IMG/VR virus record: IMGVR_UViG_3300011152_000015
Coordinates: 27,189 to 91,188 of that record
Source: a virus
Lineage: Duplodnaviria; Caudoviricetes
Strand: one strand, 5' to 3'
Length of the DNA stretch: 64,000 nucleotides
Made by a program: the position numbers and the translations under genes. The notes under the pieces are model-generated. The model made no database searches, was not told the origin of the DNA, and worked only from the letters and a program-made list of their open reading frames with translations. The first letter of the stretch is position 1. The number at the start of each line of letters is the position of its first letter. This document shows, piece after piece, positions 16,756-64,000 of this stretch.

Positions 16756-16875
16756 ATGCCAGAGAAAACCGCCTCCACGCCAGCAACCACGCGCCATGCA
16801 CTGTCCCGCCGCTTCAGCGTGGCGCCGATGATGGATGGGATCGACTCAAAGCTCTGCAAGCCCCGTATTTCCTGA
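16756..16875 (+). pseudogene. dusA: 5' fragment of tRNA-dihydrouridine synthase A, broken at the att junction
   Basis: Translates MPEKTASTPATTRHALSRRFSVAPMMD then GIDSKLCK..stop instead of the conserved WTDRHCR. Confidence 0.8.
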
Positions 16876-17128
16876 CGCTAAGCCCTTTTATAAAACCTTC
16901 CGTGTGCACTGTGTGTGCAATTTTGCGACCGCTCGTCATACCCTTTACGCGTACCGGCCATACCCTTTTCGTGGCCAAAGCGAAAAATCAGTCCAATCAC
17001 TAGGTTTGCCAGGATGAGAAATATGGGTAGTGCCGGTCTGTCCAATACATGGCACTGCAGACATCAGCCCGCACCTTCAAACCGTCCGAAAGCCCCTCTC
17101 TGGATCGCACACCGTTAAAGCGAATCCG

Positions 17129-17238
17129 CACTCATCGCCTGCGACATCATTCGGTTTCACACTCACCGACTGCGACAAATTTAAAGTTCGCACTCATGGT
17201 CTGTGACATCCAATACTTGTCGCATTGACACTCTGCGA
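17129..17238 (+). repeat. Four phased repeats CAYTSA-N4-CTG(C/T)GA with a 31-32 bp period; candidate oriT or att-arm region
   Basis: Copies start at 17129, 17160, 17191 and 17223 (degenerate). Confidence 0.55.
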
Positions 17239-17390
17239 ACTCCGCAATATACCGGGTCATTACAGTCACTTTAAATGTCTGGAAAGTCACTCAAGCTGCC
17301 TTTTGGGTCACTTATAGAGTCAGCTCAGTCAATTTTTTTAAATAAACTCTTCCCCCATCACTTGCTCCATAAGCATAATAAAACTGTATC

Positions 17391-17780
17391 TTGTGGGTGG
17401 CCAGTTGTGTCTATGATAGACATTTAATGCTGCTCACTCTCCTTCGGAGGTTGCGCGTGGAAAATAATAATAAGAAAGGCAGGCCAAGCATTAGTGAATC
17501 TGCTCGCCGTAACAAACCACTGATTATTCGCCTTAACGACAAAGAGCGCGAGACAATTAAGGCTAAATGCGAAGAGGCAGGCTACCAAGCCGCAGGGGCA
17601 TTTGTACGGGACTTGCTAATAAAGGGTAAGCCAGGCCAAAAGCAACGCATCCCCCTGAGTCACCTCCAGCTTTCATTGGAGCTGCAACGTATCGCGAGAC
17701 TAATCCAGAAAGGCAATGACTCAGAACATGTAGTTCGAGAGCTATTCGCACTAAACAATAAGCTTCTAACTGGAGAATAA
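17391..17780 (+). CDS. mobC: MobC-type relaxosome accessory protein; likely start GTG 17457
   Basis: KGRP..R.K.L.IRLND.E...I..K...AG RHH pattern; ELQRI; directly upstream of the relaxase. Confidence 0.8.
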   Translation: MWVASCVYDRHLMLLTLLRRLRVENNNKKGRPSISESARRNKPLIIRLNDKERETIKAKCEEAGYQAAGAFVRDLLIKGKPGQKQRIPLSHLQLSLELQRIARLIQKGNDSEHVVRELFALNNKLLTGE

Positions 17781-17784
17781 TAAT

Positions 17785-18975
17785 ATGATTGGTAAAATCA
17801 CAGAAAAAGGCATCGGCTCGTTTAGAAATCGCATTGAGTACATCTTTGGATTGCGCAAGCATGAGCACGCCCTGACAACAATAAGAACTATCGGACGGAA
17901 CTGCTTTTCTCCCGATCCTCTTCGCCATGGCCACGACAAAGACAAGATCGATGTAGAAGGCATGATTGCCGAGTTTGATGCTGTCGAAAAACTTAGGAAT
18001 AACTCGATCGACAGTGACAGAGTTGTAAAGCCCGTCTGGCACGCAATCCTCGCACTGCCCCCAGGAGAGCATCTGGACGACCAGCAATGGCACGAAGCGA
18101 TCGAGATGTATCTTGCCGACCTGGGTTTCAGTGACCTGAACAAGTGGGTTGCGGTGCTCCACGGGGACACAGACCACGAGCATGTCCACATCGTAGCTAA
18201 TCGCATTCGTTTAGATGAAGAGTTTTCCATGGTCAAGGACTCAAACGAGCGCTCACGCAGCTGCGACAGCACGTCTCGGATTGAGGATCACTTTGGCCTC
18301 AGCAAAGCCCCGGCTCCCACTGAAACCTGGGGAACGGCGATCTCCCGTGCGCAAATTGAAGCCGCTGAGCGCGAAGGAACGATCCCTCTGAAGCACCGCA
18401 TGATCGCAAAGATCGCGGGAGCTGTTGAAGCCACCCAGCAAGCCCAAGGCGACATGTTTATGCTTATCCGCCTACTCCGCAAACAGCAGGTCTACGTTCA
18501 CTTCACGAAAAACCAGGATGGTCAGCCCACCGGCATTGCCTACGAATATGCGGGCAAGATCATATCTGGACGCAAGCTAAAACGCAGCCGCCTCACATTC
18601 CAAAAATTAACAACCCAGGAGCAAATTTCATATGACCCCGAAACCTTTTGCGATCTTGAGAGAGAAGCTTCTCGAAGAGATAGCGAGCGCGAAGAACGAG
18701 TGCGAATCTACTACTTGGTTCTCAGAGCCAAAAATAGAAGACCCCTGCGTCTTAGCTTCAAGGCGCGCCAACAAAAAGAGCTCGAAGACACCATTAAATT
18801 GATCGTAGCCGCCATATTAGCTCTGTTTGGAATTCGAGCAAATTGGGAGTTTGAAGACAAAAAGGAAGGCGAGCACTACCACCAGCTCCGGAGCAATTGG
18901 GTAACGCTACCTCAAGCTGAACAGCAACAGGACTTATCAATGGCTTGGGACGACCACAGAGAACTAGCACTTTAA
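17785..18975 (+). CDS. MOBP-family relaxase
   Basis: MIGKI..G..F...IEYI (catalytic Tyr), PVWHAILAL, HGDTDHEHVHIVANRI (HUH). Confidence 0.92.
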   Translation: MIGKITEKGIGSFRNRIEYIFGLRKHEHALTTIRTIGRNCFSPDPLRHGHDKDKIDVEGMIAEFDAVEKLRNNSIDSDRVVKPVWHAILALPPGEHLDDQQWHEAIEMYLADLGFSDLNKWVAVLHGDTDHEHVHIVANRIRLDEEFSMVKDSNERSRSCDSTSRIEDHFGLSKAPAPTETWGTAISRAQIEAAEREGTIPLKHRMIAKIAGAVEATQQAQGDMFMLIRLLRKQQVYVHFTKNQDGQPTGIAYEYAGKIISGRKLKRSRLTFQKLTTQEQISYDPETFCDLEREASRRDSEREERVRIYYLVLRAKNRRPLRLSFKARQQKELEDTIKLIVAAILALFGIRANWEFEDKKEGEHYHQLRSNWVTLPQAEQQQDLSMAWDDHRELAL

Positions 18976-19028
18976 TAAAAAAGCCCCGCAGTGCGGGGCA
19001 GATAATAAATAACGGAAAATTGCCAGAT

Positions 19029-19499
19029 CTAATCAAACTTCAATATCTGATCTACCAATGTTTCTTCGATTACAGCATTGTAGTTCTTGACTATCCCGCC
19101 CTCGCCCACGAGCAAATATGTCGTGTTAGCAGTGATAAATGAGTTGTTGTTTACAAAAAATCTCAGGTAGCTCGTGATGTATACCTCGCCCAGATCTCTT
19201 TGTTTCCGATCCTCAAGAATTTCCCCGCAGAAGAGTTTGAATGGCTTGACGAGGCTGTAATCGGGTACTGGCGGCCACTCCCACTCATCAAAATCATTTG
19301 GGATGACGAACCAGTCTCGGACAATGGCCATGGACTCAACGCCGGAATCTCGATAAATGACGCGAGCCTGATCTTCGCTCATTCCGCTGTCGATAATGGG
19401 GCGCGAGTGCTTTCGGAGGGCAGCAACTTTTTGCTCTTGATTGCCGCCTGGGTACAGCATAGGTCGCCTTGTCATGCTCACCTCCCAAATACTAATCAT
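19029..19499 (-). CDS. Hypothetical protein
   Basis: ORF downstream of the tail operon, converging on a hairpin at ~18980-19000. Confidence 0.6.
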   Translation of the reverse strand: MISIWEVSMTRRPMLYPGGNQEQKVAALRKHSRPIIDSGMSEDQARVIYRDSGVESMAIVRDWFVIPNDFDEWEWPPVPDYSLVKPFKLFCGEILEDRKQRDLGEVYITSYLRFFVNNNSFITANTTYLLVGEGGIVKNYNAVIEETLVDQILKFD

Positions 19500-19520: not shown

Positions 19521-21887
19521 TTAAACCGCCACTGGTCTATTCACTTTTACTACGACCGGCACTGACGATACACCGGAAGCATAGGTACTGACCCGAAACT
19601 CCAGTTCATCCCGCAACACCCCTCCATTGCTTGACGCCTCGCCATCAAATCTCCAGCTGTTTCCAGTCAGGTTGTCTGCCTGTCCGACCTTGGCGCCTGC
19701 AGACCAAACCCCAATTGAAACGGAGCCAGCGAAAGCCTGATCACGATCATCCCCATAAAACACGACCGCTTGCTCAGCACCGCTCCGATACCTCCAGGAA
19801 ACCTCAGCAACCCCAGAAATCTCCCCACCCCCAACACCATTGACCAAAACCCTCGCTGGCGGAAAAACTTGGTCATTGGTGCCTTTGACGACAAAGCTTT
19901 GCTCTGCTGCCTCGGCTTCGGTTTGGCGGCGTGTCTGGGTTTTGACCAGGGTTTTGAGGTACACAGCGCTGCCGGCGTTGAACTGGCTTTGGGTGATGCC
20001 GTGACCTTCGGATACCGCCCAGGTTTTGGTACCGACCAGGTGTGCTTTTGCGGTGCTACCGAAGAGAGCGCGGCGGACGTTTTTGAGCTGGGCGGTGGTG
20101 CTGGTCAGAATAGTGAAGGTCTCGTAGGACATCCATTCGCCGTTGATGTACAGGATGCCCAGGGCCTCGCGGTTTTCATTTGTGCTGTAGTTGTCGAGCA
20201 GCTCGATCGGGCCTGAGATGATGGGGCCGGTGGCCAGGGTTGTGGGGCTTGCCGGCAGGGCTTCAGTGAGCTGGAAAACAGGGGTGAATGGGTAGACGCC
20301 CTGATCACTCCAGGACTCTGCGCCTTGCCTGGTGATCAGCTTGTAATCTTGGCCTGCTGGTGGCTGCTCAATTAGGGTCATGAGCGTGCGTGTAAGGCCT
20401 GCGGTGGCGTTAAAGATTGCCGGGGCTTCAACGATTTGGACGTCTGGCGGATCAACAGGCTCAAACGTGGGCTTTGTCCAAGCGTGCTCACCACCGTCGC
20501 TGTACACAGTGTTTTGCACGCCAAAGACGTCTTGGGTGAGTGTAAGCCTGATTGCGCTGTCCAGCATGTTACCGACGTCGACCCCCATTACGCGCATAAC
20601 AAGGCCTTCGACTTGCAGCGGGGGCCAGTCGAGACGGACTACGTCTAGCATCTCGATATCGAACATCGAACGGTTGCACTCAACAATGCAGCTGGCCAGT
20701 GGCACGGACAAAGGCCGAAGCTCACGCTGAGCAATCATCGCGGCCAAGGCCCCCGTCGAAACGCTCATAAAGTCGTAAGTGACGCCGTCCGTATCGCCTT
20801 TGTGGATGCGCAACCCGAGGTTTTGAGCTGTTGCTGTTCGATCATTAAATCCGTCCGCGATGGACAGGTATTTGACTTTGACTTCGTTTGTCGCGGTATC
20901 TAGAGAGCCACGGTTGAAATTGCTGATGCTCTTGATGTTGCTGGCGTTAAGGACTGGTAAATCAGCAATTGCGTAGTCTTCCCTAGCTAGCTTGAGTTTT
21001 AGCTGACCGGTGGCGGCATCCGTTATTAGCGAGCCGTTTATCACTCTGAGGATGTCATCAATAACGGCTGATGCTGATTTAGCCGAGTCAACCACCCCAC
21101 TTACGCCGTAACCCTCGCCATGCAAAATCTCAGCGCAACTCTCGATGGTACTAACGTCGACCAGCGAGGACGAGATAGAGGCCCCGAATCTCTTATCCGT
21201 CAAGAATTCATGGATGGCATAAGCTGGATTTGCATCGTCTCCAATAATTTCTAAAGCTGTGTTGCCGCCAGGCGACCTAGGGAAGCGACTGCAGACAAAA
21301 GAGATCTTGGCCGGTGTCTCACTATTGCCAATGTAAAAACCTTCCAGAACGGCGTAGCAGAGACCGCGTAGCCCAGCAACGATGTCGATACCAACTACTC
21401 GCTGCAGATACTGATTTGCTAGCTGTGTGAGGCTTCCGCTGTAAAAACGGATTGTTCCAGACACTCCGCCTGAACCATCTTCGCCTCCAAAAAGCTCTGG
21501 CTTGTTGATTTGGATCGCGCCATCCGATATCTGTCCTGACCAAGCCTTGTCGTCATCAAACCAAACTTCTTTGAGCGTTACTCCAGATCCGTGGCAAATA
21601 CCAAGCTGTACGCCCATGTAGTACTTGTAACCAACGGTCATTTTTTTTGATGAAAAGCCGGACTTAACTTTTTTGGTGATCGCCTGCGAGCGCAAATCCC
21701 CGTACCAAAGTACATTGGGCCCACTCAACTTGCGGGTGCCATATAAAACCTGGATTGGGCGTTCAGCTGCTGTTGGGAAAGTAAAGTCTTCGAGCGCTGC
21801 AGACTTTCTATCCTCAATCTTTGGCCCTCTTGACATCATCCATACAGACAAGAGGAACATAACAACGTAGAAAATTGCTAAAACCAT
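19521..21887 (-). CDS. Tail tip / central tail protein
   Basis: FPTAAE.PI.VLYGT, GPNVLWYGD, GYKYYMG, DANPA. Confidence 0.85.
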   Translation of the reverse strand: MVLAIFYVVMFLLSVWMMSRGPKIEDRKSAALEDFTFPTAAERPIQVLYGTRKLSGPNVLWYGDLRSQAITKKVKSGFSSKKMTVGYKYYMGVQLGICHGSGVTLKEVWFDDDKAWSGQISDGAIQINKPELFGGEDGSGGVSGTIRFYSGSLTQLANQYLQRVVGIDIVAGLRGLCYAVLEGFYIGNSETPAKISFVCSRFPRSPGGNTALEIIGDDANPAYAIHEFLTDKRFGASISSSLVDVSTIESCAEILHGEGYGVSGVVDSAKSASAVIDDILRVINGSLITDAATGQLKLKLAREDYAIADLPVLNASNIKSISNFNRGSLDTATNEVKVKYLSIADGFNDRTATAQNLGLRIHKGDTDGVTYDFMSVSTGALAAMIAQRELRPLSVPLASCIVECNRSMFDIEMLDVVRLDWPPLQVEGLVMRVMGVDVGNMLDSAIRLTLTQDVFGVQNTVYSDGGEHAWTKPTFEPVDPPDVQIVEAPAIFNATAGLTRTLMTLIEQPPAGQDYKLITRQGAESWSDQGVYPFTPVFQLTEALPASPTTLATGPIISGPIELLDNYSTNENREALGILYINGEWMSYETFTILTSTTAQLKNVRRALFGSTAKAHLVGTKTWAVSEGHGITQSQFNAGSAVYLKTLVKTQTRRQTEAEAAEQSFVVKGTNDQVFPPARVLVNGVGGGEISGVAEVSWRYRSGAEQAVVFYGDDRDQAFAGSVSIGVWSAGAKVGQADNLTGNSWRFDGEASSNGGVLRDELEFRVSTYASGVSSVPVVVKVNRPVAV

Positions 21888-21906
21888 TTTGTTCTTCTTA
21901 TTGTTT

Positions 21907-22707
21907 TTATATGAACGGGTTTTGTTCTGGGATCGTCAAGCAGCCTGAGAAGTTCTCAAAATTATTAAAGGAGTGACAGGCACTTGATGAGCGATCACAG
22001 CCTTTTGCTAATTTGACCGAGCTACCAGCTTTGAGGGAATCGATACCCGAAATTAGAGTAATGCTCTTTTCGGCAGCATTTGCTTCCAAAATCATCCTAT
22101 GGTCAGTTTCGTCAAACGAACAAAGTCCCGCCAGATAGTACTCGGGATCATGATCCAAACTGGTAAGATAGATTTTAGCCCCACCGCCCTCCACTTTGAT
22201 TACCGTTTGTGTTTCCTGATAGTTTGTAATATCAAGGCTACACATATCGTCATACAGGTGGTGGTTGCATTGACTATGATATCCAAACCTCAGAATTTGA
22301 CGTCTAACCAGCGCGCTTGAGGGGTTGCAGGTGAGAGTTGCAATCGAGTTATTCCACGCTACAGCACTTACTTCGCCGCCAAAAACGTTAACAAAAAGGT
22401 TTTTGTTGTCGCGCTGACTTCGGAACACTTTGAGAGTTACGTGCTTCGCAGGGAGGTGTGAGCGAAACAGCAGAGGGACAGGGCTGTCGCCAGGAAGGTC
22501 GATGTCGAGGCGATTTTTGTAGTCTTCAGCAGTGCGCTGCACCTTCCCACGCTTAATGGCAATCGGCTGGTAAACGATGCCGTCTGTGTGCAAGTGCTGA
22601 CGAGTGCCAGAGGTGTAGGCAAAGTATTGCGATCCGAACTCAAAAAGATAGAGCTCAACGGGCTTATTGAGAGATAGCGACCTCTCTATCGATTTCAGAG
22701 TCAACAT
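21907..22707 (-). CDS. DUF2163/BR0599-type tail protein
   Basis: PVELYLF, C.H.LYD..C, GCDRS...C..FNN.ENF.G...IP..NP. Confidence 0.88.
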   Translation of the reverse strand: MLTLKSIERSLSLNKPVELYLFEFGSQYFAYTSGTRQHLHTDGIVYQPIAIKRGKVQRTAEDYKNRLDIDLPGDSPVPLLFRSHLPAKHVTLKVFRSQRDNKNLFVNVFGGEVSAVAWNNSIATLTCNPSSALVRRQILRFGYHSQCNHHLYDDMCSLDITNYQETQTVIKVEGGGAKIYLTSLDHDPEYYLAGLCSFDETDHRMILEANAAEKSITLISGIDSLKAGSSVKLAKGCDRSSSACHSFNNFENFSGCLTIPEQNPFI

Positions 22708-24346
22708 ACAGGAGCTGCTTTATTATTTTAGTTATCGAGCTGTCTACAGGCGTATCGAAGATGTAATTAAACTCATCGGATTCGAAACGCCCCAAAAATA
22801 GTGGTGCTATATACTCAACGTCATCTTTATTAATATTTTCGACTGATTCGCGAAGCGTAATTACTTCAGTTTCCTCTAGTCCTTCTTCCACGGATTTGAC
22901 ATTTCGGTATAGCACAGTCCCATTATACAAGTGAATCGAGATAGCGGGTGCGAATGTACGGGATTTCAGGAAGTTTTTGTAGTTTGCCCTGTTGATAGTG
23001 ATATCTAGTGTTGCAGGGCCAATGTCTTTTGCTAATTTCATAGCAGTGAGCGGGCTCTCGATATAAAACTCACCTTGACTGCCGCGCTCAAGGGCGGAAA
23101 AGAACTCAAAGCGCTGGCGATCATACTCTGTAAAAAAACGCCAAGAATATTGCAGGTATTTAACTGCTCCAGAAGTGCGGTCATAAATGTGACGTCTCCC
23201 GATGCCGGGGTCGAGTGTTTCCCGTAACCGCTTGTACTGAATAGTGCAATCTTTTGACCGATCAGCTCTCACATCCAGCACTCGGCGAGAGTTAAAAATG
23301 ACAAAGTCATCAATCGGCGCTGGTGGCTCTACCACATCAAAATCAAAAGATGCCGATGTAAGCTCGACGTCTAAGCCATGAGCAATTGAATTCGCCTCGT
23401 CGCTTATCCATGCTGAGTGAATGGGCACAAGGCGGGAACCGATACGGTAGTTTTTCTTAACCAATTCTTTAAAAGAAACGCCCTCCTCAGAAATCGCATC
23501 AATCACAGCAATCTCCCATGCGTCACCATCACTCAACATGACTCTGCTACCTGGCGTAACCACTGCACTTAAATTCAAGACAAAAGCCTTGGCATCAAAC
23601 CTCGACACTGGAGCGATAAGCTCGGACTGCATTGGCCATACCGGTACCAAAAATTGACCAGAAAAATTCCCTACCAAGCTTCCAAACAGGTATTGGTCAG
23701 CATCACTGAGCCCGTATTGGTACGTAGCCGAGAGCCGGGGTTGGTCGCGAAGAGAGATCCGCTGCTCAGATCCATCCCAAGACTCAATGACTTCCGTGAG
23801 GTAGCTTTGCCGGAGTTCCGGTTGCATGCTCCAGTCGATCGGCCAATGCACGACAAGAGCCAGGCTAGCGGTAAACTTAAAGTCGTAGCTTCCTGCAGCC
23901 CCAAAATCAAAGGTCGCTCGGTAAGCGACATCGCCGCTATTTTGGTTAAGAGAAACTTGGTATGTGGACGGCACAAAGGAAAACACTGAGCCAGATCTAT
24001 CGCCCGCCAGATCTACAGCCTCACCCCCGAACTCCTCAACCCCATGCAGCCCCAAGCTCGATCGATACGAGTGCCAAACTGCAAACTCAAACGTCTCGCC
24101 ACCAGTAACCAGCCCAGCATCGATCACAGCTGGCGTGATAAATACATTGTCAAAAAATACATCACCCCAACCACCTGCCTGCAGCCCACCGATGCTCAAA
24201 TCCAGCCCGCTGTAGCCTACATACCCATAACCACCGCGAATCATTTTGCGAGCAAAGACAGGCTCAGGCACGAGCTCAAAGTCGTACCCGCAATATCCTG
24301 ATTCCTTTGCCTGGATGACCTGGAATTTGGCTGCGATCTTAGACAT
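22664..24346 (-). CDS. Tail structural protein
   Basis: DW......YLTEVIES.DGSEQR.SLR..PR; synteny. Confidence 0.78.
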   Translation of the reverse strand: MSKIAAKFQVIQAKESGYCGYDFELVPEPVFARKMIRGGYGYVGYSGLDLSIGGLQAGGWGDVFFDNVFITPAVIDAGLVTGGETFEFAVWHSYRSSLGLHGVEEFGGEAVDLAGDRSGSVFSFVPSTYQVSLNQNSGDVAYRATFDFGAAGSYDFKFTASLALVVHWPIDWSMQPELRQSYLTEVIESWDGSEQRISLRDQPRLSATYQYGLSDADQYLFGSLVGNFSGQFLVPVWPMQSELIAPVSRFDAKAFVLNLSAVVTPGSRVMLSDGDAWEIAVIDAISEEGVSFKELVKKNYRIGSRLVPIHSAWISDEANSIAHGLDVELTSASFDFDVVEPPAPIDDFVIFNSRRVLDVRADRSKDCTIQYKRLRETLDPGIGRRHIYDRTSGAVKYLQYSWRFFTEYDRQRFEFFSALERGSQGEFYIESPLTAMKLAKDIGPATLDITINRANYKNFLKSRTFAPAISIHLYNGTVLYRNVKSVEEGLEETEVITLRESVENINKDDVEYIAPLFLGRFESDEFNYIFDTPVDSSITKIIKQLLYVDSEIDREVAISQ

Positions 24347-25283
24347 CGACTTTCACCGCGAACCCTAAACCGAAGTACGGCTGGATGCGGACAGCCGGGA
24401 TTTCTTTGCCAAAAAAGGGAAAAATCTTGAACGTCTGGTCACCGACTACGTAGTCCTGGCCCGCAGTCATCAGGTCGCAATTCACAAAGTGCAGGTCATC
24501 AAATTCCGCAAATGGAGACCAAGCACTTTCATTTTTGACATACAAGTAGATCGGCATTAGAGCCGACATGCCGTTTAATCGATTCGAGCTGCGCGCACTG
24601 CTGCCAATTGTCCCGACCTGTCCAGGGGATGATGGGCTGAAATTGGGCACCCGCACGCCATTGCTAGCTGATAACCCAGATGCATAACCCCTCGTTTCAG
24701 AGTCTTGGTATGAGTACAGCCAGCCGCTGTAATCCGCCTTCGAAACCCACAGTGAAGTGACTGCCCCAGAGTGATCGAAAGGCACTGACTTTCCATCCCC
24801 GCTCGCGTACTCCATTCCCGTGAGCACACTGCCGCCTGCACCAGGAACCACGACCGGCGAATCCCCGAAAAACGCATGGCTATACCGACCATTTTCAAAT
24901 TCCGAGATCAGCAACACGCGCTCATCTGCAGTGAACAGATGATATGTCCCTGCCGCCCCGGCTCGAACGTACCGACCATTGTTGGAGTAACCAGGCTGCT
25001 GAAACCAAGCCAGCGAGGCTTCGAACCCAGTGCTGATCCGCATATCGATACCAGATTTCCCGTATCCGCTGCTCCAGCTCGGCCCCGTTGGGTTGAAGTC
25101 GTCGAAGCTACGCAGAGCGATGTATGTGGCCCCTTTGTGTAAGTGCAGCCGCTTCCCAAAACGTGTGTCAGCGCTGTCGACGTATGCGTGTAAATCAACC
25201 ACCCAGCCCTCGGCAAAGAGCTTCTCTCTCACCAGCTGCAGGAGGTTTTCGGAGCCCGCAAACGAGCCAGTTTGATATTTCAT
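24339..25283 (-). CDS. Virion structural (distal tail) protein
   Basis: MKYQTGS...GW start; synteny resembling D3112/JBD-type Pseudomonas siphophage tails. Confidence 0.7.
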   Translation of the reverse strand: MKYQTGSFAGSENLLQLVREKLFAEGWVVDLHAYVDSADTRFGKRLHLHKGATYIALRSFDDFNPTGPSWSSGYGKSGIDMRISTGFEASLAWFQQPGYSNNGRYVRAGAAGTYHLFTADERVLLISEFENGRYSHAFFGDSPVVVPGAGGSVLTGMEYASGDGKSVPFDHSGAVTSLWVSKADYSGWLYSYQDSETRGYASGLSASNGVRVPNFSPSSPGQVGTIGSSARSSNRLNGMSALMPIYLYVKNESAWSPFAEFDDLHFVNCDLMTAGQDYVVGDQTFKIFPFFGKEIPAVRIQPYFGLGFAVKVDV

Positions 25284-26152: not shown

Positions 26153-26190
26153 GTTGTTATTCTTATCGGCCTTTTTATTTATTATAGCAC

Positions 26191-28986: not shown

Positions 28987-29004
28987 GTTTTGTTCTTCTT
29001 ATTA

Positions 29005-31752: not shown

Positions 31753-31769
31753 AAGTGTTTTTGTTTTAA

Positions 31770-52939: not shown

Positions 52940-52970
52940 GGTCTTTACGACTCTTATTATTTGTTGAGTA

Positions 52971-56926: not shown

Positions 56927-59125
56927 TCAGAGGCCTGTATATCCCTTCATTTGCTCAAGCGACTTTGGATCAATGATGTAGTAGTAGCCCGAACTACCAC
57001 CGTCCACACGCTTTGTTTTCAAACCGCAAGCCCTCATCAGCTCGGAGATTGCGCCCTGTTTTGAGCGATCAGAAATCAATTTGCTTGCTTTAGGCAGATT
57101 GAACCCGGCGATCAATGCTTCGGCCCGAACGCAATTAATTTCGTCAAAGGCTTTTATCGAGTCTGCTGAACTCCAGGACTTGGTCTGAGACATTCCTTTA
57201 AAGATTCGCGCAAGCATACGATGCAGGGACATATTGCTTTGATGTAGCTTTTCAAAGTTGTTGAGCTTCTGCTTGCCTTGCCCCTCTTGCCAAAACTCTG
57301 TGTCTTGCAGGGTAAGCGCGGATTTCTTGAGGTAATATTCAGCTTCCGCTCTGATTGCAGAGTAGTACTCGGTGGGGCTTGAGGCGCCGTCCCGGACAAC
57401 AACCTCTGCGACTTTTCGATCAGGCATAGCAGTAGCATTCAAAACAGACTTAGCGATATTGATTTTAAGAGCACGACGAGTCTTTGAGCGCTCTTTAAAA
57501 CCGACCATGCCTTGCTCGTCATTCGTGGCCTGATTGATGACGCTAAAACCCTGCCGGCGAAGCTCGATTGAGAGGGTCAGCTGGATGTTGTCTTTGAGCC
57601 AAGCGGAGCCCTTGCGATGCTGGTAGCGCATCTCATCGAATTTCGTTTTTCTGCTGTATTGATACTCGACCTCTACCAGTTCGGATGTGCGGTTCTGAGG
57701 GTTCCGAACACCCACCAGGAAGCTCTTGGCCTTGCGGTCGCGACGGAGCATCTGAATCGCGCCTTTCGGGCTTACTGAGCCTTCGAAGAGGCCAAAATGA
57801 CGGGTAAAGTGACCTGAGGTAATGCTGATCGCACTCTTCATCGCTGGCGAGTAAATCAGCACCTCGTAGTCGCTAGAGTTAGGATTTTTAAGAAATGCTT
57901 GCTGCTGCGCGTACCCGCTCGTTGTTGACGTGATGAGCATGACTTGTCGTCCAGCCTTTTCCAGTGCCAGAGCCATGGCCGAAGCGTCACGTTTGTTATC
58001 GCAGGCAATGACTGTGTTTTCGCTGAGCGCAGAGTCCATCGCCTGTTTGCGAATCTGATCCAGCTGACCAACCTCGATAGCAATATCGCCGTGCGCAGCT
58101 TCAGCCTTAAAAACAACAACCGGGTCGGTACCATTTGTAATCAGGTCAAGGCAGGCCTGGTTAATGTCGGCGTCAGCAAACACAACGTTTTTGGCCTGCT
58201 TGACTACAGACTTTAGAGTCGACCAGACATCTTCGCGGTCGCGGACAGTGCCATCGAAAACGTGCTCGATGACCTGACTAGCCTCATCAATTACTACCAG
58301 ATCGGCATTGGCCACAAAGTCAGCGAATTTAGGCGAGATGAGGGAGTTGACCACTACCTTGAGACCTAACGCCTCACTCATTTGACCCGGCATAACATCC
58401 TGATAATCAATCAAACCGGGGATATCGATTGCTTTAACAATAGAGCGAAGCGGGGAAATAAATAGCACTCGCTTCCCCTGAGACATGAACGACTTCATCT
58501 GAGATTCTAAAATGATGGATGTTTTGCCGAAGCCGGTGTGGCACTGCAACAAAGCACGGCGAGGCACGCGAAAAATGGTGTCTCGAATTTTTTCGGCGGG
58601 GAATTTTTTGTAAGTGAGGAGATGCTCGAACTTACCCACGCATGTGTCAAAGCGCTCGGTGTGCTTGCTTACTGACTTCTGCAATACGTCTCGCTCTTGC
58701 TGTTCAGTAAGCAGGCCATCGGTATCTAATGTGGAGACAGCATCTTCGAAGCTCAAACCTACAAGAACCTCTTTGGCAAGCTCTTCGGCAGCGAACTCAA
58801 TTTTTTTCTCAATTGAGCCGGAGCGGGACATTACCAGCTTCACCAAAGCCGCCTTATTTATGTTGTGAACGTTTTCGGCGAGAACATTTTTCCCAACTGA
58901 GTCGTAAAGACCTGATGAGGTACTCAGCGCAGCTTTAACGGCTTGCATAGCGTCGTGTCGGATGTCGATGTAGCGCTTGATTTTAGGATATTCGCTGCGA
59001 AAGTAATTAGCTGCTTTAAAGTAGTTAAGGGAAGGTACAGATCTAAAACCGTCAATCGCTTCCGAGCAGCCGAGGATGTAGGAATTTGAGGATGGGCAAC
59101 CGAGAATGTTTGATTCGATGTTCAT
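56927..59125 (-). CDS. SF2-helicase-type replication / origin-binding protein
   Basis: HTGFGKT, VIDEASQV, DAD, YSP....ISI, QMLRR.R; start chosen after the AACAAAAAGAGAG leader. Confidence 0.7.
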   Translation of the reverse strand: MNIESNILGCPSSNSYILGCSEAIDGFRSVPSLNYFKAANYFRSEYPKIKRYIDIRHDAMQAVKAALSTSSGLYDSVGKNVLAENVHNINKAALVKLVMSRSGSIEKKIEFAAEELAKEVLVGLSFEDAVSTLDTDGLLTEQQERDVLQKSVSKHTERFDTCVGKFEHLLTYKKFPAEKIRDTIFRVPRRALLQCHTGFGKTSIILESQMKSFMSQGKRVLFISPLRSIVKAIDIPGLIDYQDVMPGQMSEALGLKVVVNSLISPKFADFVANADLVVIDEASQVIEHVFDGTVRDREDVWSTLKSVVKQAKNVVFADADINQACLDLITNGTDPVVVFKAEAAHGDIAIEVGQLDQIRKQAMDSALSENTVIACDNKRDASAMALALEKAGRQVMLITSTTSGYAQQQAFLKNPNSSDYEVLIYSPAMKSAISITSGHFTRHFGLFEGSVSPKGAIQMLRRDRKAKSFLVGVRNPQNRTSELVEVEYQYSRKTKFDEMRYQHRKGSAWLKDNIQLTLSIELRRQGFSVINQATNDEQGMVGFKERSKTRRALKINIAKSVLNATAMPDRKVAEVVVRDGASSPTEYYSAIRAEAEYYLKKSALTLQDTEFWQEGQGKQKLNNFEKLHQSNMSLHRMLARIFKGMSQTKSWSSADSIKAFDEINCVRAEALIAGFNLPKASKLISDRSKQGAISELMRACGLKTKRVDGGSSGYYYIIDPKSLEQMKGYTGL

Positions 59126-59341
59126 GCTAATGCTCTCTTTTTGTTGTGTGTGCTCACTGCACAATTTAATTATCGACAATGAGTAAAGGCCTGCGCAACA
59201 CTTTTTGGGTTGACACAAAGCGAGTTCGAGGTATGGAAGTTGCGGAGCGATGCGGAGCGATGATTTCGGTTGCGCAGCGATGATGATGGTTGCGCTTAGT
59301 TGTTCAAAAAATGGTCTAGATTGCGCGAGGTTGTGATTATA

Positions 59342-59499
59342 GTTTCTCTTAACCAAAGTTCTTGATCTTTCCTCTTCCCTCGGTTTGTATACCTATAGCA
59401 ACGATCATCGTCCACCCTCAACCGTGTCATTTATATTATAAAAGGAAAGACCCGTTGAGGGTGGTGGGAGGTAAGGAAGAAGATTGGTTAAGGAAAACT
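59342..59499. repeat. Nested-palindrome element, copy B; candidate origin
   Basis: Perfect IR CCACCCTCAAC (59412-59422) / GTTGAGGGTGG (59454-59464) around an AT-rich spacer; outer CTTAACCAA arms; lies between the divergent replication genes. Confidence 0.75.
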
Positions 59500-59624
59500 C
59501 CTATCTTAATTTCCTTGTATATCCTCACTTTGAAAAATGCCAAGCAAAATACGTATTGCGTCGAGAACTGCTCATTTACAACAATATAAATGTGCACGAC
59601 ACAACAACAAAAAGAGAGAGCATC

Positions 59625-60905
59625 ATGAGTATTAAATTCGCAGTACAACAAACAGCCGAAACCAGATTCGTCAGGAATCGCGAGGCACCATCGTTCCGCG
59701 ACTTCTACACCACCGTCTTGGAGCCACAGCGCATCAGCGAACTAAAAGACGGCCCGACATTCACTCCATCATTCTTCCGCGCACCAGAAAGAAACATGGA
59801 AAACGTCATCGCGACCAGCCTTATCATTTTTGATGTTGACCAAAAGCCCGGCGATGACCAGGTTAGCTTGGAAGAGGTTGAGGACGCGCTAATCGACCTG
59901 AATCTGGAGCACGCGGTTTACACGTCCTACAGCAACTCAGCGGACTGCCCCAGATTCCGCATAGTCATGCCGCTCGACCGCCCAGCTCACCCTAATGAGT
60001 TCCTTGCAGTCTCAGCAGCCGCGCTGGAGCAGCTGGACGACTTCCTCGACGGCAGGCTCCTAAAAGTAATAGACGGCTGCTGGAGAGAGACTGCACGGTG
60101 CTACTACACATTCACGACGCATCCCAATCGCCGCAACGGGGCCATTTCTTTTTACAACCCCGGCAACCCCCTAAACGTCCTGGAGCTCAAGCTCGCACAG
60201 TCGAACTACGGAATCGACGCTGAGTACACAAAAACCGGAAAACCCCGCGCCCCAGGCACAGCAGTGGGAGCACAAGGCAGATCGATGGAGCTCAACCGCA
60301 TCCTCGGTGGCCTATTCGGCTCAGCCACAGAGGCTCAGATCGTCCAGAAAATCTTTGAGGTCGACCAGGAGCAGAATCCCGGCAAGGAGTATTTCCACGA
60401 TCAGTCCTATGCCCGTCACCGCCCACGCCCAGGCGAAAGCAACGACGCTGCCGCATACCGTGCCTGCAGATCCTGGGTCAAATCCCACCTTAATTGGCTT
60501 CGCCGCAAGGCGCGTGGAATCGACACAACCATCATCAAAAGAGCCGCACAAAGCAAAGAGCCAATGCCTACGCACGAAGCCCTAATCAAACTCAAAAACA
60601 TCAAACTAGGAAAAACAAAGAGCGGTGGCGAAACAGCACTCGCAGAATTCGAAATTGTCTCCGGAGAGCACGCAGGCCGTCACGTCTGGCACCGTTTTTA
60701 CGGAAATGGCAACCACCCAACAGCTATCAAAATCAGTGGGGAAATGCTCGAAAAACTCAAGACCGCCACCAAGCTACCAAGCACCAAGTTCGCAGACGTT
60801 TTGAAAGCAAAAGACTTAGTCGTCCACGCTCGCATAAAACTAAAGCCTGGTGTCAATGGTTACCCAGCGCAAAATGAGATCGGCACCTTTTTTACTCAAC
60901 CATAA
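59625..60905 (+). CDS. AEP-like primase domain fused to a DUF669-like C-terminal domain
   Basis: IIFDVD, YTSYS, RFRIVMPL.RP; C-terminal EFEIVSGEHAGRHVW..F...NEI. Confidence 0.65.
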   Translation: MSIKFAVQQTAETRFVRNREAPSFRDFYTTVLEPQRISELKDGPTFTPSFFRAPERNMENVIATSLIIFDVDQKPGDDQVSLEEVEDALIDLNLEHAVYTSYSNSADCPRFRIVMPLDRPAHPNEFLAVSAAALEQLDDFLDGRLLKVIDGCWRETARCYYTFTTHPNRRNGAISFYNPGNPLNVLELKLAQSNYGIDAEYTKTGKPRAPGTAVGAQGRSMELNRILGGLFGSATEAQIVQKIFEVDQEQNPGKEYFHDQSYARHRPRPGESNDAAAYRACRSWVKSHLNWLRRKARGIDTTIIKRAAQSKEPMPTHEALIKLKNIKLGKTKSGGETALAEFEIVSGEHAGRHVWHRFYGNGNHPTAIKISGEMLEKLKTATKLPSTKFADVLKAKDLVVHARIKLKPGVNGYPAQNEIGTFFTQP

Positions 60906-61052
60906 CAACCAAACAAGCCCCGACTAGGGGCTTTTCCCCGCCAGCACTATTTGACATCAAATTACTTTAAGTTATACAGCCTCTAGCTCTATTGTGTGCA
61001 AAATAGATAATTGAGACAATGATCCTACAACAACAAGAGAGGACAATTAATC

Positions 61053-61688
61053 ATGAGCACTCAAACCTCCAATGGAACCAATCTTGGACGCGACGAGAAA
61101 ATCCAGCTAATCAAAAATTACCTGAGCTTCCTTGAGAACAGTGGATCACAATACGACTGTTTCCTTGATCTACTGATGCAAGTACGAGGATTGAACCAGG
61201 CAATTTGTGACATTTACAAATCATCGGAAGCATTAGGGCTGGTTGCCAAATTCAGCGCCGACCTTTTTAAAGTGCTCAATACAGAAATTGGCGAGTTCGA
61301 AAGAGAACAGGATTTTATGGCCGGGGCGTATTCCTATTTGAACGAACAAGAGCCCGCACATAGGACATCTCCAGACTACTATGACAAACTTCAGTCGTTA
61401 CCTGAGATCAGTGTGTCCGATTTGTTAAGATCTGTTCGGGCTGATAAGCACAGCTTGCAGCAGGAAAACTTCCGACGTCTCTTATTGGGCAAGGACGGCG
61501 ACCGGGAAGGTAATCTAGGAACTCTACAAACCTTAAAAGTCGAGAGGGTTGGCTCATGGGGATGGGGGTCTAATTTGTTTTACCTAGATCTTATAACAAA
61601 AGATACCACTGTACATTGGCAAGTCATATTTAGCCCACATACGCTGATGAGCTACCCTCAAATCGAAGAACTCTTGCCTGTAGACTAA
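61053..61688 (+). CDS. Hypothetical protein
   Basis: AACAACAAGAGAGG leader; terminator downstream. Confidence 0.65.
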   Translation: MSTQTSNGTNLGRDEKIQLIKNYLSFLENSGSQYDCFLDLLMQVRGLNQAICDIYKSSEALGLVAKFSADLFKVLNTEIGEFEREQDFMAGAYSYLNEQEPAHRTSPDYYDKLQSLPEISVSDLLRSVRADKHSLQQENFRRLLLGKDGDREGNLGTLQTLKVERVGSWGWGSNLFYLDLITKDTTVHWQVIFSPHTLMSYPQIEELLPVD

Positions 61689-61839
61689 ACCCCCACAAAG
61701 CCCTTGCCACCCAGCAGGGGCTTTTATTTGCGCACAAGGTTTGACACCCAACTACTTTAAGATATACCCCAAAAAGATATTGCACCCAAAACTCCTCGTT
61801 GAGATAATTATAAAACAATAATAAGAACGGAGCTTTATC

Positions 61840-62172
61840 ATGTTTGACACCCCTCAGGTCACTAGCACAGAGATTGATCAACTGCGGATCGCCAAGCTAC
61901 CAGTAACAACAGCAAATCTCATATATAAAGCTTTTTGCATGCAGGAGGAGTGTGAAGCCAGATCCTTGCTTGAGCATGCGTTTTCACACTTATTTACTAC
62001 CGACATTAAGTATAACCCGTGCCCTGGAATAGTTTACCGCTTTGAAGTCGAAACTCGAAACTTGGAAGATCCAAGAATTTTCTCGGTTTCAATTTACAAC
62101 GAAGCCAAGAAGGCCTGTCTATATCACGCACATTTAAACAAGCAAGGTCTTGATATTTTGTCTGGTACCTAA
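61840..62172 (+). CDS. Hypothetical protein
   Basis: AACAATAATAAG..GGAG leader. Confidence 0.6.
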   Translation: MFDTPQVTSTEIDQLRIAKLPVTTANLIYKAFCMQEECEARSLLEHAFSHLFTTDIKYNPCPGIVYRFEVETRNLEDPRIFSVSIYNEAKKACLYHAHLNKQGLDILSGT

Positions 62173-62658
62173 CTGGTTGTTGGCTTTGCGCGCAAACACC
62201 CAATCTTTGCACTCAAACCCCGCCCGCTCGCATACATATTTCCTTGGTATTATGTTTTGCGAGTTAACAGGGTTAGATAAAAATAACTTTAAAAATCCCA
62301 CACATTCGTTCAGCTCATTGTTATTATAAATGTGTGGTGAGTTCCCTCTCTGCTTGCCACAATCCTTGTTGTTGTGTCTCCAAGCCCTGGCCAGGTTCTC
62401 TCTCTTCCTGGCCGGGGCTTTCTTATTTCTCCTCTGAATTGACAAATTGGCAATGTATTGACCGTTCGTCAGCTTTAGTCTGTTAGATAGTTCGGGTAGT
62501 GTCAGACAACATGCGGGATTACTGGGGTTGCAGGGGGATGTTGTCTGAGGCGTGGTATTAGTACACTAAGTAGACTATTTGATTTCGATTTACATGCATA
62601 TTGATTGCTCTTAGCCTTGGTCTGTCGGTGGACGACACAATGAAATGAGAGTGCAGAG

Positions 62659-62880
62659 ATGGGTATTTATCATGAGATTCCGGACGACTTGATCGATCCT
62701 TTTGAGGCAGCAGAAATTATAGGTGTATCTGTCAGCACTTTAAAAACCTGGCGATCAAGGAATCCAGATCTCGGGTATTACCAGGGCTGCGCTCGTGAGA
62801 TTCGCTACTCGCGAGCAGAGTGCAGGCAATACCGGCAAAATCGCTTCCGCCGAATCGTGCCTAAGCCCTCAGGGCGGTGA
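62659..62880 (+). CDS. Small HTH protein (excisionase/MerR-like)
   Basis: EAAEIIGVSVSTLKTWRSR..IRY. Confidence 0.75.
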   Translation: MGIYHEIPDDLIDPFEAAEIIGVSVSTLKTWRSRNPDLGYYQGCAREIRYSRAECRQYRQNRFRRIVPKPSGR

Positions 62881-63001
62881 GCTTGTCTGCAACGATATTC
62901 CGGTTTCGCTTAACCAATCTTATCCAGGCCTCGCTGAGGCCATTCCTCGCATTTCATAGCCCTTTGCAATATTATCGCGGTTATTTGCGAGGGCCCCACG
63001 C

Positions 63002-64000
63002 ATGCCGCGACCATCCGCGCTCGAACTCAGGCGCAATCGATTAGCCAGGCTCAAAGCCAGCTTAGACGAGTGCGGCTACCGGCTTGTCGATGGTCTGGAT
63101 GTCGAAGATCCACACACCAAAATTTTGCGCGCAAACGCGTTAGCGCACCGCCTTGCGCTCGGGCAGCTCATTGCTCGCGGTGGTGAAGAAAAAGCAAGAT
63201 TGACCAAAGAGCTTGCTCAGCTACCAGAACTAAGTGCTGTCTACGCTTTTCAAGAGCCTGATGAGGTGCCATTGAGGGTAGGCAAGATTGCAAAAACGGA
63301 CGAGCAGCTTTACTCAGAGTTGGTGACAGAATTTAGTCAGGCCCTGGCTGAATTAAATGGAATTGAGGCCGAGCAGGATGAGGAATTATCCACGCCAGAC
63401 AGCATTTCTGCTCTCGCCGACACAGCTCCAAAAGTAGGCAGGCCTGCTAAAACACCCTTAGAAAATTTGGATAGAGGTCTCTCTGAAAACTGGGGTACAG
63501 CTCGCTTAGCCCTTGCGAAGGCAATGATTAACGCCGATTCCCCTCGCACCATGGGCCGCCCAGCCCGGACGGTAGAAGCCGTAAAGGCTGATTACGACGC
63601 GCGAAAAGAAAAAATTGATCGCACCATTTTAGAACACGAGTCAATGCTGCGAGGTGTCGAAATACACGATCGAGCAGTAAAGGTATACAGAGACGTCTTG
63701 GTGCAATTCAAAAGGCTCGCTAAAGAGGTAGGTGGCCCGGATCAAATTTCAGCTAAATCAGAAGTGGCGCGTCTGGAGGCCCATCTGAAGTTTCTCAAGG
63801 CTGATCGTAAGCGCTATGTGGAAGCCGGTGAGCCAGATCTGATGTGGTCACATCACAACTCTCCAAGATTCCACTTACTCAACGCAAAGACAGACTTGGC
63901 GGCGGTTCGAGATTTGTATGATGAACTAATGCTGCCCCGAGACATTAAGCGCCTGAAAGACACTGAAGAGGCCCAGCGCAAGGCCAAACCCAAGAAATGA
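63002..64000 (+). CDS. Hypothetical helical protein
   Basis: 332 aa ORF with two GRPA motifs. Confidence 0.6.
   Translation: MPRPSALELRRNRLARLKASLDECGYRLVDGLDVEDPHTKILRANALAHRLALGQLIARGGEEKARLTKELAQLPELSAVYAFQEPDEVPLRVGKIAKTDEQLYSELVTEFSQALAELNGIEAEQDEELSTPDSISALADTAPKVGRPAKTPLENLDRGLSENWGTARLALAKAMINADSPRTMGRPARTVEAVKADYDARKEKIDRTILEHESMLRGVEIHDRAVKVYRDVLVQFKRLAKEVGGPDQISAKSEVARLEAHLKFLKADRKRYVEAGEPDLMWSHHNSPRFHLLNAKTDLAAVRDLYDELMLPRDIKRLKDTEEAQRKAKPKK

What the first reader, a model, noticed from the sequence alone, without database searches (positions are those of the whole stretch)
16810..64000. A full virion-encoding prophage that also carries MobC and a MOBP relaxase
Seen: intact mobC and an HUH relaxase lie between the att junction and the tail-tip gene, with no IS or visible compositional boundary, and the relaxase has the element's A-rich leader. 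Plasmid-typical genes (umuDC, MvaT) are also present. No coupling protein or T4SS is in the window. Established: MobC plus MOBP defines elements mobilised in trans. Inference: a phage / integrative-mobilisable hybrid that spreads both by virions and by borrowed conjugation, bypassing receptor host range.
Basis: partly seen in the sequence, partly recalled or inferred. Interest (0 to 1): 0.85.

Follow-up and report, generated by a model that had tools for sequence, protein, structure and literature searches.

The report
Pseudomonas prophage family carrying its own relaxase
A 49-kb tailed prophage inserted in the dusA gene carries, just inside its left end, an intact and conserved pair of plasmid-type mobilisation genes, so the virus may also be movable by bacterial mating, though that transfer has not been shown.

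Summary
Window 16,836-64,000 is the left 47 kb of a 49.1-kb low-GC prophage (element B). I recovered its missing right end (integrase, attR, dusA) from the source contig. B lies in tandem with a different, high-GC stutzeri-type prophage that owns the integrase at 15,517-16,650.

A NikA/MobC-like RHH gene (17,457-17,780) and a 396-aa HUH relaxase (17,785-18,975) sit 0.6 kb inside attL, convergent with the tail operon. No second att core, IS or GC break separates them from the tail-tip gene.

The layout recurs in complete, att-bounded prophages of P. shirazensis and another Pseudomonas (relaxase 81% and 55% identical). A third syntenic prophage (38-40%) has it without a dusA att. Relaxase dN/dS is 0.08-0.12, and the catalytic Tyr and His triad are invariant.

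The same module also heads non-phage dusA islands, and it survives in decayed prophages. The relaxase is MOBP-like, far below the family cut-off. MvaT is a lineage gene; umuDC and an IS66 are local cargo.

Conjugative mobilisation is inferred, not shown: no helper, nic site or virion evidence exists. I found no paper describing a prophage with its own relaxase. Verdict: a real hybrid architecture, a new variant of known kinds, and directly testable.

The parts
1..16809 (.). Neighbouring high-GC (about 65%) prophage A. It is not part of element B. Primase, cytosine methylase, PrtN-like gene 15,240-15,516 (+), DusA-type integrase 15,517-16,650 (-), and its own replacement dusA 5' end starting at about 16,748.
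   Evidence: 81-82% nt identity over about 35% of the query to Stutzerimonas stutzeri phages vB_PstS-pAN and PG1. PF00589. Sequence read.
16810..16835 (+). attL of element B, a hybrid junction with prophage A. dusA codons ..RRFSVAPMMD end here, and the crossover lies within ..ATGATGGA.
   Evidence: The same core recurs at attR on the source contig (window-equivalent 65,933-65,958), followed by intact dusA. The same junction sequence is seen in all relatives.
16836..17456 (+). Conserved non-coding arm and candidate oriT/promoter region. GTGTGCA repeats lie near the core. Three 22-nt iterons CGCACTCAYNGNCTGYGACAWC at 17,127, 17,158 and 17,189 have 31-nt spacing. Palindrome TGTCTATGATAGACA at 17,408-17,422. 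A stretch of about 60 nt, nearly invariant across the 7 copies, precedes mobC.
   Evidence: Alignment A1 of 7 copies, mean column identity 77%. Repeats. Function not shown: the iterons could equally be integrase arm sites.
17457..17780 (+). mobC-like relaxosome accessory gene (NikA-like ribbon-helix-helix, 107 aa).
   Evidence: PF21983, 32 bits against cut-off 27. 67-70% identical in relatives. An RHH gene is also present upstream of the relaxase in G029.
17785..18975 (+). HUH relaxase, 396 aa, MOBP-like. Catalytic Tyr19 (RIEYIFG); His triad HGDTDHEHVH at 126-135.
   Evidence: PF03432 E 1e-22. NF041893 60.6 bits, below cut-off. Invariant residues. dN/dS 0.08-0.12. Relaxase fold.
18983..18999 (-). 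GC-rich hairpin with a T run on the minus strand, closing the tail/late operon where it converges on the mob operon.
   Evidence: consensus scan only.
19029..19499 (-). DUF6957 gene in the variable cargo slot between relaxase and tail tip.
   Evidence: PF22275. The slot holds other cargo in relatives.
19521..31339 (-). Tail module: tip (788 aa), BR0599/gp84-type hub, tail assembly protein, two distal tail proteins, tape measure (931 aa), pre-TMP chaperone, major tail protein.
   Evidence: PF13550, PF09356/PF09931, PF23789. phrog_1101, 1082, 687, 807.
31312..40699 (-). Connector, lysis and head genes: tail-S-like, Mu gp36-like, MuF-like (32,727-33,671), lysozyme (33,671-34,162), two small genes after the lysozyme (34,163-34,959; no confident family match), P22-type coat (37,508-38,671), and a 260-aa gene (38,790-39,572) whose position suggests a scaffold but which has no Pfam match.
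   Evidence: Syntenic in P. shirazensis and G237.
40882..42593 (+). umuDC cargo. Absent from the P. shirazensis and G237 copies.
   Evidence: PF00717, PF00817 and others..
45612..45983 (-). MvaT-family xenogeneic silencer, a conserved lineage gene.
   Evidence: PF22055. 53-71% identical over most of its length in SHI, G237, G029, G266 and G093; in PUT only the C-terminal 43 residues align, at 84%.
48047..50057 (+). IS66-family insertion (tnpB, tnpC) with 8-bp target duplication GGAACTCC. It splits an in-frame 193-aa accessory gene.
   Evidence: PF03050 and others. Inverted repeats and duplication.
51611..55231 (-). Packaging genes: portal (DUF4055), large terminase, and upstream small-terminase candidates.
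   Evidence: PF13264, PF03237. TerL at most 38% identical to any cultured phage.
56927..64000 (.). Replication/early region: SF2 helicase-like initiator (809 aa, -) and divergent 473-, 211-, 110- and 332-aa genes (+). The element continues 1.96 kb past the window to integrase and attR.
   Evidence: phrog_38391/4913. L017 shows a 363-aa integrase, then dusA.

Best explanation
Element B is a temperate siphovirus-type prophage of 49.1 kb (window 16,836 to about 65,958). It uses a DusA-associated tyrosine integrase to sit in the 5' end of dusA. It belongs to a Pseudomonas phage family whose genome carries a complete relaxosome module as a stable part. After excision, the circle reads integrase - attP - iteron-rich arm - mobC-like RHH - relaxase - cargo slot - tail tip.

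Proposed mechanism (inferred, not shown):
1. The RHH protein binds the conserved iterons upstream of its own gene.
2. The relaxase nicks a nearby nic site through Tyr19 and the His-triad metal centre.
3. The coupling protein and mating pore of a co-resident conjugative plasmid or ICE export the single strand.
4. The element re-circularises in the recipient, and its own integrase inserts it into dusA.

The same DNA can alternatively be packaged by its terminase into its own virions.

Shown here: the architecture, its boundaries, conservation of the linkage, intact catalytic residues and purifying selection. Inferred: oriT, use of a helper, actual transfer, and virion production.
For: Boundaries:
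- The attL core is at 16,810-16,835. The attR core, integrase and intact dusA are on the source contig, whose 12,161-nt overlap with the window is identical.
- A complete 49.5-kb syntenic copy in P. shirazensis is bounded by the same cores.
- A 45-kb copy in G237 runs from attL to integrase and dusA.

No internal boundary:
- There is one att-like core in the 91-kb record.
- The P. shirazensis copy has two, attL and attR, with none between mob and tail.

Linkage:
- mob lies beside the tail tip in L002, L004, L006, SHI, L022, G237 and G029, with relaxases 87% down to 38% identical.
- G029 keeps mob next to the tail although it has no dusA att.

Gene integrity:
- PF03432 E 1e-22.
- Invariant Y19, H86, H126, H133 and H135.
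- dN/dS 0.08-0.12.
- The model's best PDB matches are relaxase domains.

Other points:
- The non-coding arm with iterons and a palindrome is conserved.
- The virion gene set is full.
- No T4CP or VirB4 is in the record, so any transfer must be in trans.
- P. putida GM4FR, which carries a relative, has two VirB4 and three T4CP genes elsewhere.
Against: - No transfer, nicking or oriT has been demonstrated, and the iterons could be integrase or excisionase arm sites.
- The P. shirazensis genome holding the complete copy gave no match in the VirB4 and TraG-D_C family searches.
- The module also heads non-phage dusA islands of 78-80 kb (G398, G266).
- It persists in copies that have lost tail or head genes (L003, L005, L023, PUT).
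- Phage-linked and island-linked relaxases interleave on the tree, so selection may act in the island state.
- No cultured phage is close: TerL is at most 38% identical, and there is no nucleotide match over the tail. Virion competence is therefore unproven.
- An IS66 has entered this copy.
- The element has its own helicase-type replication genes, so the relaxase is not needed for replication, but that also does not prove a transfer role.
Confidence: 0.55

Rival explanations
1. The phage part is dead or dying. The element now lives only as an integrative mobilisable element built on a prophage carcass (a 'proto-hitcher'), and spreads by integrase plus relaxase alone, without virions.
For: Relatives repeatedly lose virion genes while keeping mob. 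L003 joins the tail tip directly to the terminase; L005 and L023 keep only fragments; the P. putida copy has Gabija-like genes after the relaxase. The commonest relaxase cluster (P0045, indexed in 210 blocks of the collection) is followed by defence-like cargo. No cultured relative exists. An IS66 is present here.
Against: This copy, the P. shirazensis copy and G237 retain the full collinear virion, lysis and packaging set with open frames, despite 40-80% protein divergence. That implies continued selection on virion genes. The IS66 hits only a small accessory gene.
Confidence: 0.2
2. The relaxase and RHH protein serve the element's own rolling-circle replication or maintenance after excision, as relaxases do for some ICEs, and not intercellular transfer.
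For: HUH relaxases and rolling-circle initiators share chemistry (general knowledge). The module sits next to attP with iterons. One host of a complete copy gave no match in the VirB4 and TraG-D_C searches.
Against: The element already encodes a helicase-type initiator and a divergent partner. The closest family models are conjugative or mobilisation relaxases. The nearest non-phage contexts are integrase-plus-relaxase islands typical of IMEs.
Confidence: 0.13
3. The module is a passenger of the dusA site and not of the phage. Tandem arrays at dusA let islands and prophages recombine, so an island's attL-proximal mob arm is repeatedly grafted onto prophages with no function there.
For: Tandem occupancy occurs here and in G004. 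Homologous mob arms (relaxase 52-55% identical) head 78-80-kb non-phage islands. Phage and island rows interleave in the relaxase tree. The arm right of the core is conserved whatever lies to its left.
Against: G029 has the same mob-tail adjacency with no dusA att and no tyrosine integrase on that contig. Relaxase and tail-tip identities fall together (81/80, 55/41, 38/41%). dN/dS is low in phage-linked copies.
Confidence: 0.1

Closest known systems
Integrative mobilisable elements (IMEs/iMOB) of Proteobacteria, including dusA-targeting islands mobilised by IncC plasmids (bioRxiv 10.1101/2021.06.18.448947; PLoS Biol review PMC11389934; bioRxiv 10.64898/2026.01.13.699239)
   Same: A site-specific integrase at one end, an own relaxase plus RHH accessory gene, no mating-pore genes, integration in the dusA 5' end, and cargo or defence genes.
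   Different: This element also encodes a complete tailed-virion, lysis and packaging set of about 35 kb. The relaxase is only 37% identical to the nearest clear IME relaxase.
DusA-associated-integrase prophages and islands (Farrugia et al. 2015, PMC4482086)
   Same: An integrase next to a replacement dusA 5' end, a short core repeated at both ends, and prophage content.
   Different: That paper does not mention relaxases (0 occurrences). Here a mob module occupies the integrase-distal end.
Streptococcal prophages transferred by ICE-encoded conjugation (Huang et al., ISME J 2023, as cited in PMC12282955 and PMC11200725) and 'conjugative prophage' Phi1207.3 (PMC4260502)
   Same: A chromosomal prophage proposed or shown to move by cell contact using another element's machinery.
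   Different: Those are Gram-positive. I could not read the primary paper to see whether they encode their own relaxase. Here the prophage carries its own MOBP-like relaxase and accessory protein, in Pseudomonas.
Phage-plasmids (P1, N15, SSU5 types; PMC7969092, PMC12282955)
   Same: Hybrids of phage and plasmid-type gene sets. A 40%-identical relaxase sits in a ParA, antiterminator-Q and lysis element.
   Different: Element B is integrated, has no plasmid partition or replication genes, and its plasmid-type part is for mobilisation, not maintenance. [quoted passage not shown]
MOBP/MOBQ relaxases with RHH accessory proteins (RP4 TraI/TraJ, R64 NikB/NikA, R1162 MobA/MobC)
   Same: N-terminal Tyr, HxDxD..HxH motif, an upstream RHH gene, and a relaxase fold.
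   Different: About 30% identity to plasmid relaxases, far below the NCBIfam equivalog cut-off. The C-terminal 120 residues are of unknown fold (pLDDT about 50).

Membership tests
Integrative mobilisable element (IME) | Site-specific recombinase and att sites bounding the element | tested here: met
   attL at 16,810-16,835. Integrase plus attR plus dusA on L017.
Integrative mobilisable element (IME) | Own relaxase and/or oriT | tested here: met
   The relaxase is intact. oriT is only a candidate region.
Integrative mobilisable element (IME) | No mating-pore or coupling-protein genes | tested here: met
   PF03135, PF12696 and PF02534 are absent from the 91-kb record. All large ORFs are otherwise assigned.
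Integrative mobilisable element (IME) | Helper-dependent conjugative transfer | not testable with these tools
   Needs mating assays.
MOBP relaxase class | Scores above the family model's threshold | tested here: not met
   NF041893 TraI_MobP_relax is the best model, but at 60.6 bits against a cut-off of 250. MobP2 scores 16 bits. MOBscan was not available.
MOBP relaxase class | Motif I Tyr and motif III HxDxD(H/N)xHxH | tested here: met
   Y19 and H126-G-D-T-D-H-E-H-V-H135 are invariant.
HUH relaxase fold | N-terminal domain superposes on solved relaxases | tested here: met
   The top nine PDB matches are MobA R1162, MobM and NES, at prob 0.99-1.00 and E 2e-3 to 1e-2. Model pLDDT is above 90 over most of residues 1-300.
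MobC (Pfam PF05713) | Match to the MobC model | tested here: not met
   Only PF21983 NikA-like was reported at E <= 0.01. No NCBIfam hit. Functionally it is the same kind of RHH accessory protein.
Temperate tailed phage (siphovirus type) | Terminase, portal, capsid, tail tube, tape measure, tail tip and lysis genes in one block | tested here: met
   Collinear in three complete relatives.
Temperate tailed phage (siphovirus type) | Makes infectious particles | not testable with these tools
   No close cultured phage. No informative sequencing run.
DusA-associated-integrase element | DAI-type integrase beside a replacement dusA 5' end, with the core repeated at the far end | tested here: met
   (35% identical to prophage A's integrase, E 2e-61). 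Compared with PMC4482086.
ICE / conjugative prophage | Own type IV secretion system | tested here: not met
Phage-plasmid | Extrachromosomal maintenance genes (rep/par) | tested here: not met
   The element is integrated between att sites, and no Par or Rep family was found in the Pfam scans.

The most novel reading that the evidence does not exclude
A widespread family of Pseudomonas temperate siphoviruses is truly dual-route. The same 45-50-kb genome leaves the cell either packaged in its own virions or as relaxase-piloted single-stranded DNA through a neighbour's conjugation pore. That would make it the first described prophage lineage with its own relaxosome, and a route by which a phage escapes receptor-limited host range. 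Its decay products would seed the relaxase-bearing dusA genomic islands.
Probability: 0.4. Interest if true: 0.85.

Novelty: new variant of a known kind. Interest (0 to 1): 0.66.

Why it matters
Phages and conjugative or mobilisable elements are treated as separate transfer routes with different host-range limits. [quoted passage not shown]

A conserved prophage family with its own relaxase and accessory protein would:
- give a concrete, culturable system (for example the complete copy in the P. shirazensis strain A_1.9.1 assembly) to test whether a virus can also hitch on conjugation;
- help explain how related prophages reach hosts that lack the receptor;
- suggest one origin for relaxase-bearing genomic islands, as decayed prophages;
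- bear on annotation, since tools that class an element by relaxase or by virion genes would give conflicting calls on these loci.

Tried and rejected
- **Integrase at 15,517-16,650.** I first suspected it belonged to the mob-bearing element, making a small IME of integrase plus mob beside a prophage. I rejected this. The genes to its left are stutzeri-phage genes. Element B's own integrase lies beyond the window. Relatives show host dusA sequence, not an integrase, left of the same arm.
- **My error.** I reported the two integrases as unrelated. That was a frame error of mine. One search shows 35% identity, E 2e-61.
- **Internal att search.** I searched for a second att between relaxase and tail, at up to 6 mismatches on both strands. 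None was found.
- **Relaxase against PHROGs.** No family matched.
- **Relaxase against 50,697 phage records.** Only five weak partial hits, in unannotated faecal contigs and one Salmonella record.
- **PDB by sequence.** No relaxase hit. The fold search was needed.
- **Sequencing runs.** Only small-share wastewater and gut metagenome holders, and no RNA holder listed.
- **Pf-5 'Prophage 03'.** This element, shown to excise from dusA in PMC4482086, resembles prophage A's type (P2-like tail, methylase, PrtN), not element B.
- **The 51-kb metagenome contig with the 40%-identical relaxase.** I could not open the whole contig.
- **Complex prediction** for RHH plus relaxase was not run, because a textbook pair would pass by likeness.
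- **The primary ISME J 2023 paper** is not held.

Full report
**What the window is.** The record is a 91,188-bp IMG/VR 'provirus', and the window is its last 64 kb. GC falls from about 65% to 45-57% at about 16.8-17.0 kb.

The left part (1-16.8 kb) matches Stutzerimonas stutzeri phages vB_PstS-pAN and PG1 at 81-82% nucleotide identity over about 35% of the query. It ends with a PrtN-like gene and a tyrosine integrase (15,517-16,650, minus strand). Next comes a short open frame reading MPEKTASTPATTRHALSRRFSVAPMMD. That is the replacement dusA 5' end typical of DusA-associated-integrase elements (PMC4482086). After ..ATGATGGA (16,835) the DusA reading is lost and the low-GC DNA begins.

**Boundaries of the low-GC element (element B).** Using a protein near the window's end, I recovered the source contig, a 332-kb NCBI assembly contig (L017). 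Its 12,161-nt overlap with the window is identical. Past the window lie a 363-aa integrase, a second replacement dusA start (MNQRVISRRFSVAPMMD) fused to an intact 326-aa dusA, and then host genes at about 62% GC.

The att core recurs there at window-equivalent 65,933-65,958, so element B is 49.1 kb. Its integrase is 35% identical (E 2e-61) to prophage A's. An earlier 'no similarity' result of mine was a frame error. The record holds only one att-like core at up to 6 mismatches, so nothing separates the mob genes from the tail genes.

**The mob module.**
- ORF 17,457-17,780 is a 107-aa NikA-like ribbon-helix-helix protein (PF21983).
- ORF 17,785-18,975 is a 396-aa relaxase (PF03432, E 1e-22).
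- Across 29 homologues down to 24% identity, the invariant residues include Tyr19 (RIEYIFG), His86 and the triad His126/His133/His135 in HGDTDHEHVH.
- An AlphaFold model (mean pLDDT 82.7, above 90 over most of residues 1-300) has as its nine best PDB matches the relaxase domains of MobA-R1162, MobM and NES.
- The best curated family model is TraI/MobA(P), but at 60.6 bits against a cut-off of 250. Plasmid relaxases are about 30% identical. 'MOBP-like' is fair; 'a MOBP member' is not established.
- No PHROG family matches the relaxase, and no cultured phage encodes a close one.

**The arm upstream of mobC.** The 620-nt arm upstream of mobC is as conserved as coding sequence across relatives (mean column identity 77%). 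It carries three 22-nt iterons at 31-nt spacing. It also has a perfect 15-nt palindrome inside a stretch of about 60 nt before mobC that is nearly invariant across the seven copies. This is a reasonable oriT/operator candidate, but the iterons could equally be recombinase arm sites.

The mob operon converges on the late operon at a GC-rich hairpin (18,983-18,999).

**The phage part.** Reading the minus strand from 55 kb down to 19.5 kb, the genes are:
- terminase candidates and TerL, then the portal;
- an accessory stretch: an IS66, MvaT, several unknown genes and umuDC;
- a scaffold-position gene with no family match, then a P22-type coat;
- a tail-chaperone-like gene, then lysozyme and two small genes of unknown family;
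- MuF-like, Mu gp36-like and tail-S-like genes;
- major tail protein, pre-TMP, TMP, two distal tail proteins and a tail assembly protein;
- a BR0599/gp84-type hub and a 788-aa tip.

A helicase-type initiator and divergent early genes follow at 57-64 kb.

The IS66 (48,047-50,057, 8-bp duplication GGAACTCC) splits only a 193-aa accessory gene. TerL is at most 38% identical to any cultured phage, so virion competence rests on gene content alone.

**Relatives.** The relaxase has 417 homologues at E <= 1e-5. About 80 90%-identity clusters are at least 70% identical, and every one that carries a source name is from Pseudomonas or Stutzerimonas. One cluster is indexed in 210 blocks of the collection.
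- *IMG/VR.* Five IMG/VR contigs carry it at 82-84% identity. Four of them have the tail genes directly after it, and in one of these the tail tip is joined straight to the terminase.
- *P. shirazensis.* This genome has a complete 49.5-kb copy between attL and attR/dusA, collinear gene for gene with the window. It lacks umuDC, the IS66 and the DUF6957 gene.
- *Genus sample.* In 401 species-representative Pseudomonas genomes, 12 have the relaxase. Three of these have the tail tip 0.7-2 kb away and TerL 24-35 kb away.
- *G237.* A complete 45-kb dusA prophage (relaxase 55%, tail tip 41%, TerL 76% identical).
- *G029.* The same synteny with an RHH gene and a 38-40% relaxase, but no dusA att and no tyrosine integrase on that contig.
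- *P. kurunegalensis.* A copy with a 56% relaxase has 5 kb of cargo between relaxase and tail tip.

Relaxase dN/dS against the window copy is 0.08-0.12. The linkage is therefore old, maintained, and not tied to one integration module.

**Complications.**
- The module also sits at the attL end of 78-80-kb dusA islands with metabolic cargo and no virion genes of this type (G398, G266).
- It sits in front of defence-like cargo (Gabija-like genes in P. putida, TIR, AAA_15/HATPase).
- It sits in a classic P4-integrase IME at 37% identity.
- On a relaxase tree, phage-linked and island-linked rows interleave in four supported clades. Either prophages of this family decay into relaxase-bearing islands, or the arm is exchanged between co-resident dusA elements. 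Tandem occupancy, seen here and in G004, would favour such exchange.
- Homologues at 40-41% identity lie in other phage-like contexts (lysozyme, Rz, antiterminator Q, ParA).

**Function.** No VirB4 or coupling protein is in the record, so any conjugative movement needs a helper. P. putida GM4FR has such systems. In P. shirazensis the VirB4 and TraG-D_C family searches found nothing. Nothing here shows nicking, transfer, excision or particle formation, and public reads were uninformative.

The most economical reading is an integrative element that is at once a temperate phage and an IME. I put about 0.55 on the whole statement. The architecture is near-certain; conjugative use is roughly even odds. 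The rivals are a dead phage now living as an IME, a role for the relaxase in rolling-circle maintenance, and a functionless graft from dusA islands.

**Comparison with the literature.** The dusA-integrase paper does not mention relaxases. [quoted passage not shown] It cites a single report of prophages mobilised by ICE-encoded conjugation in streptococci. 'Conjugative prophage' Phi1207.3 is another Gram-positive case. My searches found no description of a prophage family with its own relaxase.

This is best filed as a new variant combining two known kinds. It is interesting mainly because it is conserved, common in Pseudomonas, and directly testable.

Noticed in passing
window 1-16,809: A second, unrelated prophage (GC about 65%, 81-82% nt identity over about 35% of the query to S. 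stutzeri phages pAN and PG1) is stacked at dusA in tandem with element B. Its left end lies outside the record. It resembles the Pf-5 'Prophage 03' type (integrase, methylase, PrtN, LexA-like).
   Followed up: partly
window 48,039-50,065: A 2,011-bp IS66-family insertion (tnpB plus tnpC, no tnpA) with inverted repeats starting GTAAGCG and an 8-bp duplication GGAACTCC. It splits an in-frame 193-aa accessory gene (47,861-48,046 plus 50,066-50,461).
   Followed up: yes
window 16,838-16,853 and 41,906-41,921: A 16-nt exact match between the DNA just right of the att core and the inside of umuC (blastn-short E 0.013). Unexplained; may be chance.
   Followed up: no
window 18,976-19,520; L007 11,200-21,000; L019 9,200-17,000; L023 9,200-10,600: The slot between relaxase and tail tip is a cargo hotspot across relatives: DUF6957 here, OLD-TOPRIM ATPase plus UvrD helicase (Gabija-like) in P. 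putida, TIR_2 in P. sivasensis, and AAA_15 plus HATPase_c plus TCAD9 in the commonest variant.
   Followed up: partly
L032-L035 (G398, G266): dusA islands of about 78-80 kb, low GC, with mobC-relaxase at the attL end and an integrase at the far end. They carry aminotransferase, aldehyde dehydrogenase and permease genes and no virion genes of this type.
   Followed up: partly
L039-L041 (G029): A syntenic prophage with an RHH gene and a 38-40% relaxase beside the tail tip, but no dusA core and no tyrosine integrase on the contig. Its integration mechanism is unknown.
   Followed up: partly
L026, L027, L030: A 40%-identical relaxase with an upstream 132-aa gene lies in a 51-kb metagenome contig. 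The contig also has ParA, SSB, an HTH repressor, antiterminator Q, lysozyme/Rz and a >1,900-aa polyvalent protein. It may be a phage-plasmid carrying a relaxase.
   Followed up: partly
G004 (L015, L016, L005): Another tandem at dusA: a 43-kb prophage (att cores at 4,031 and 47,366, own umuDC) followed by a truncated mob-bearing element.
   Followed up: partly
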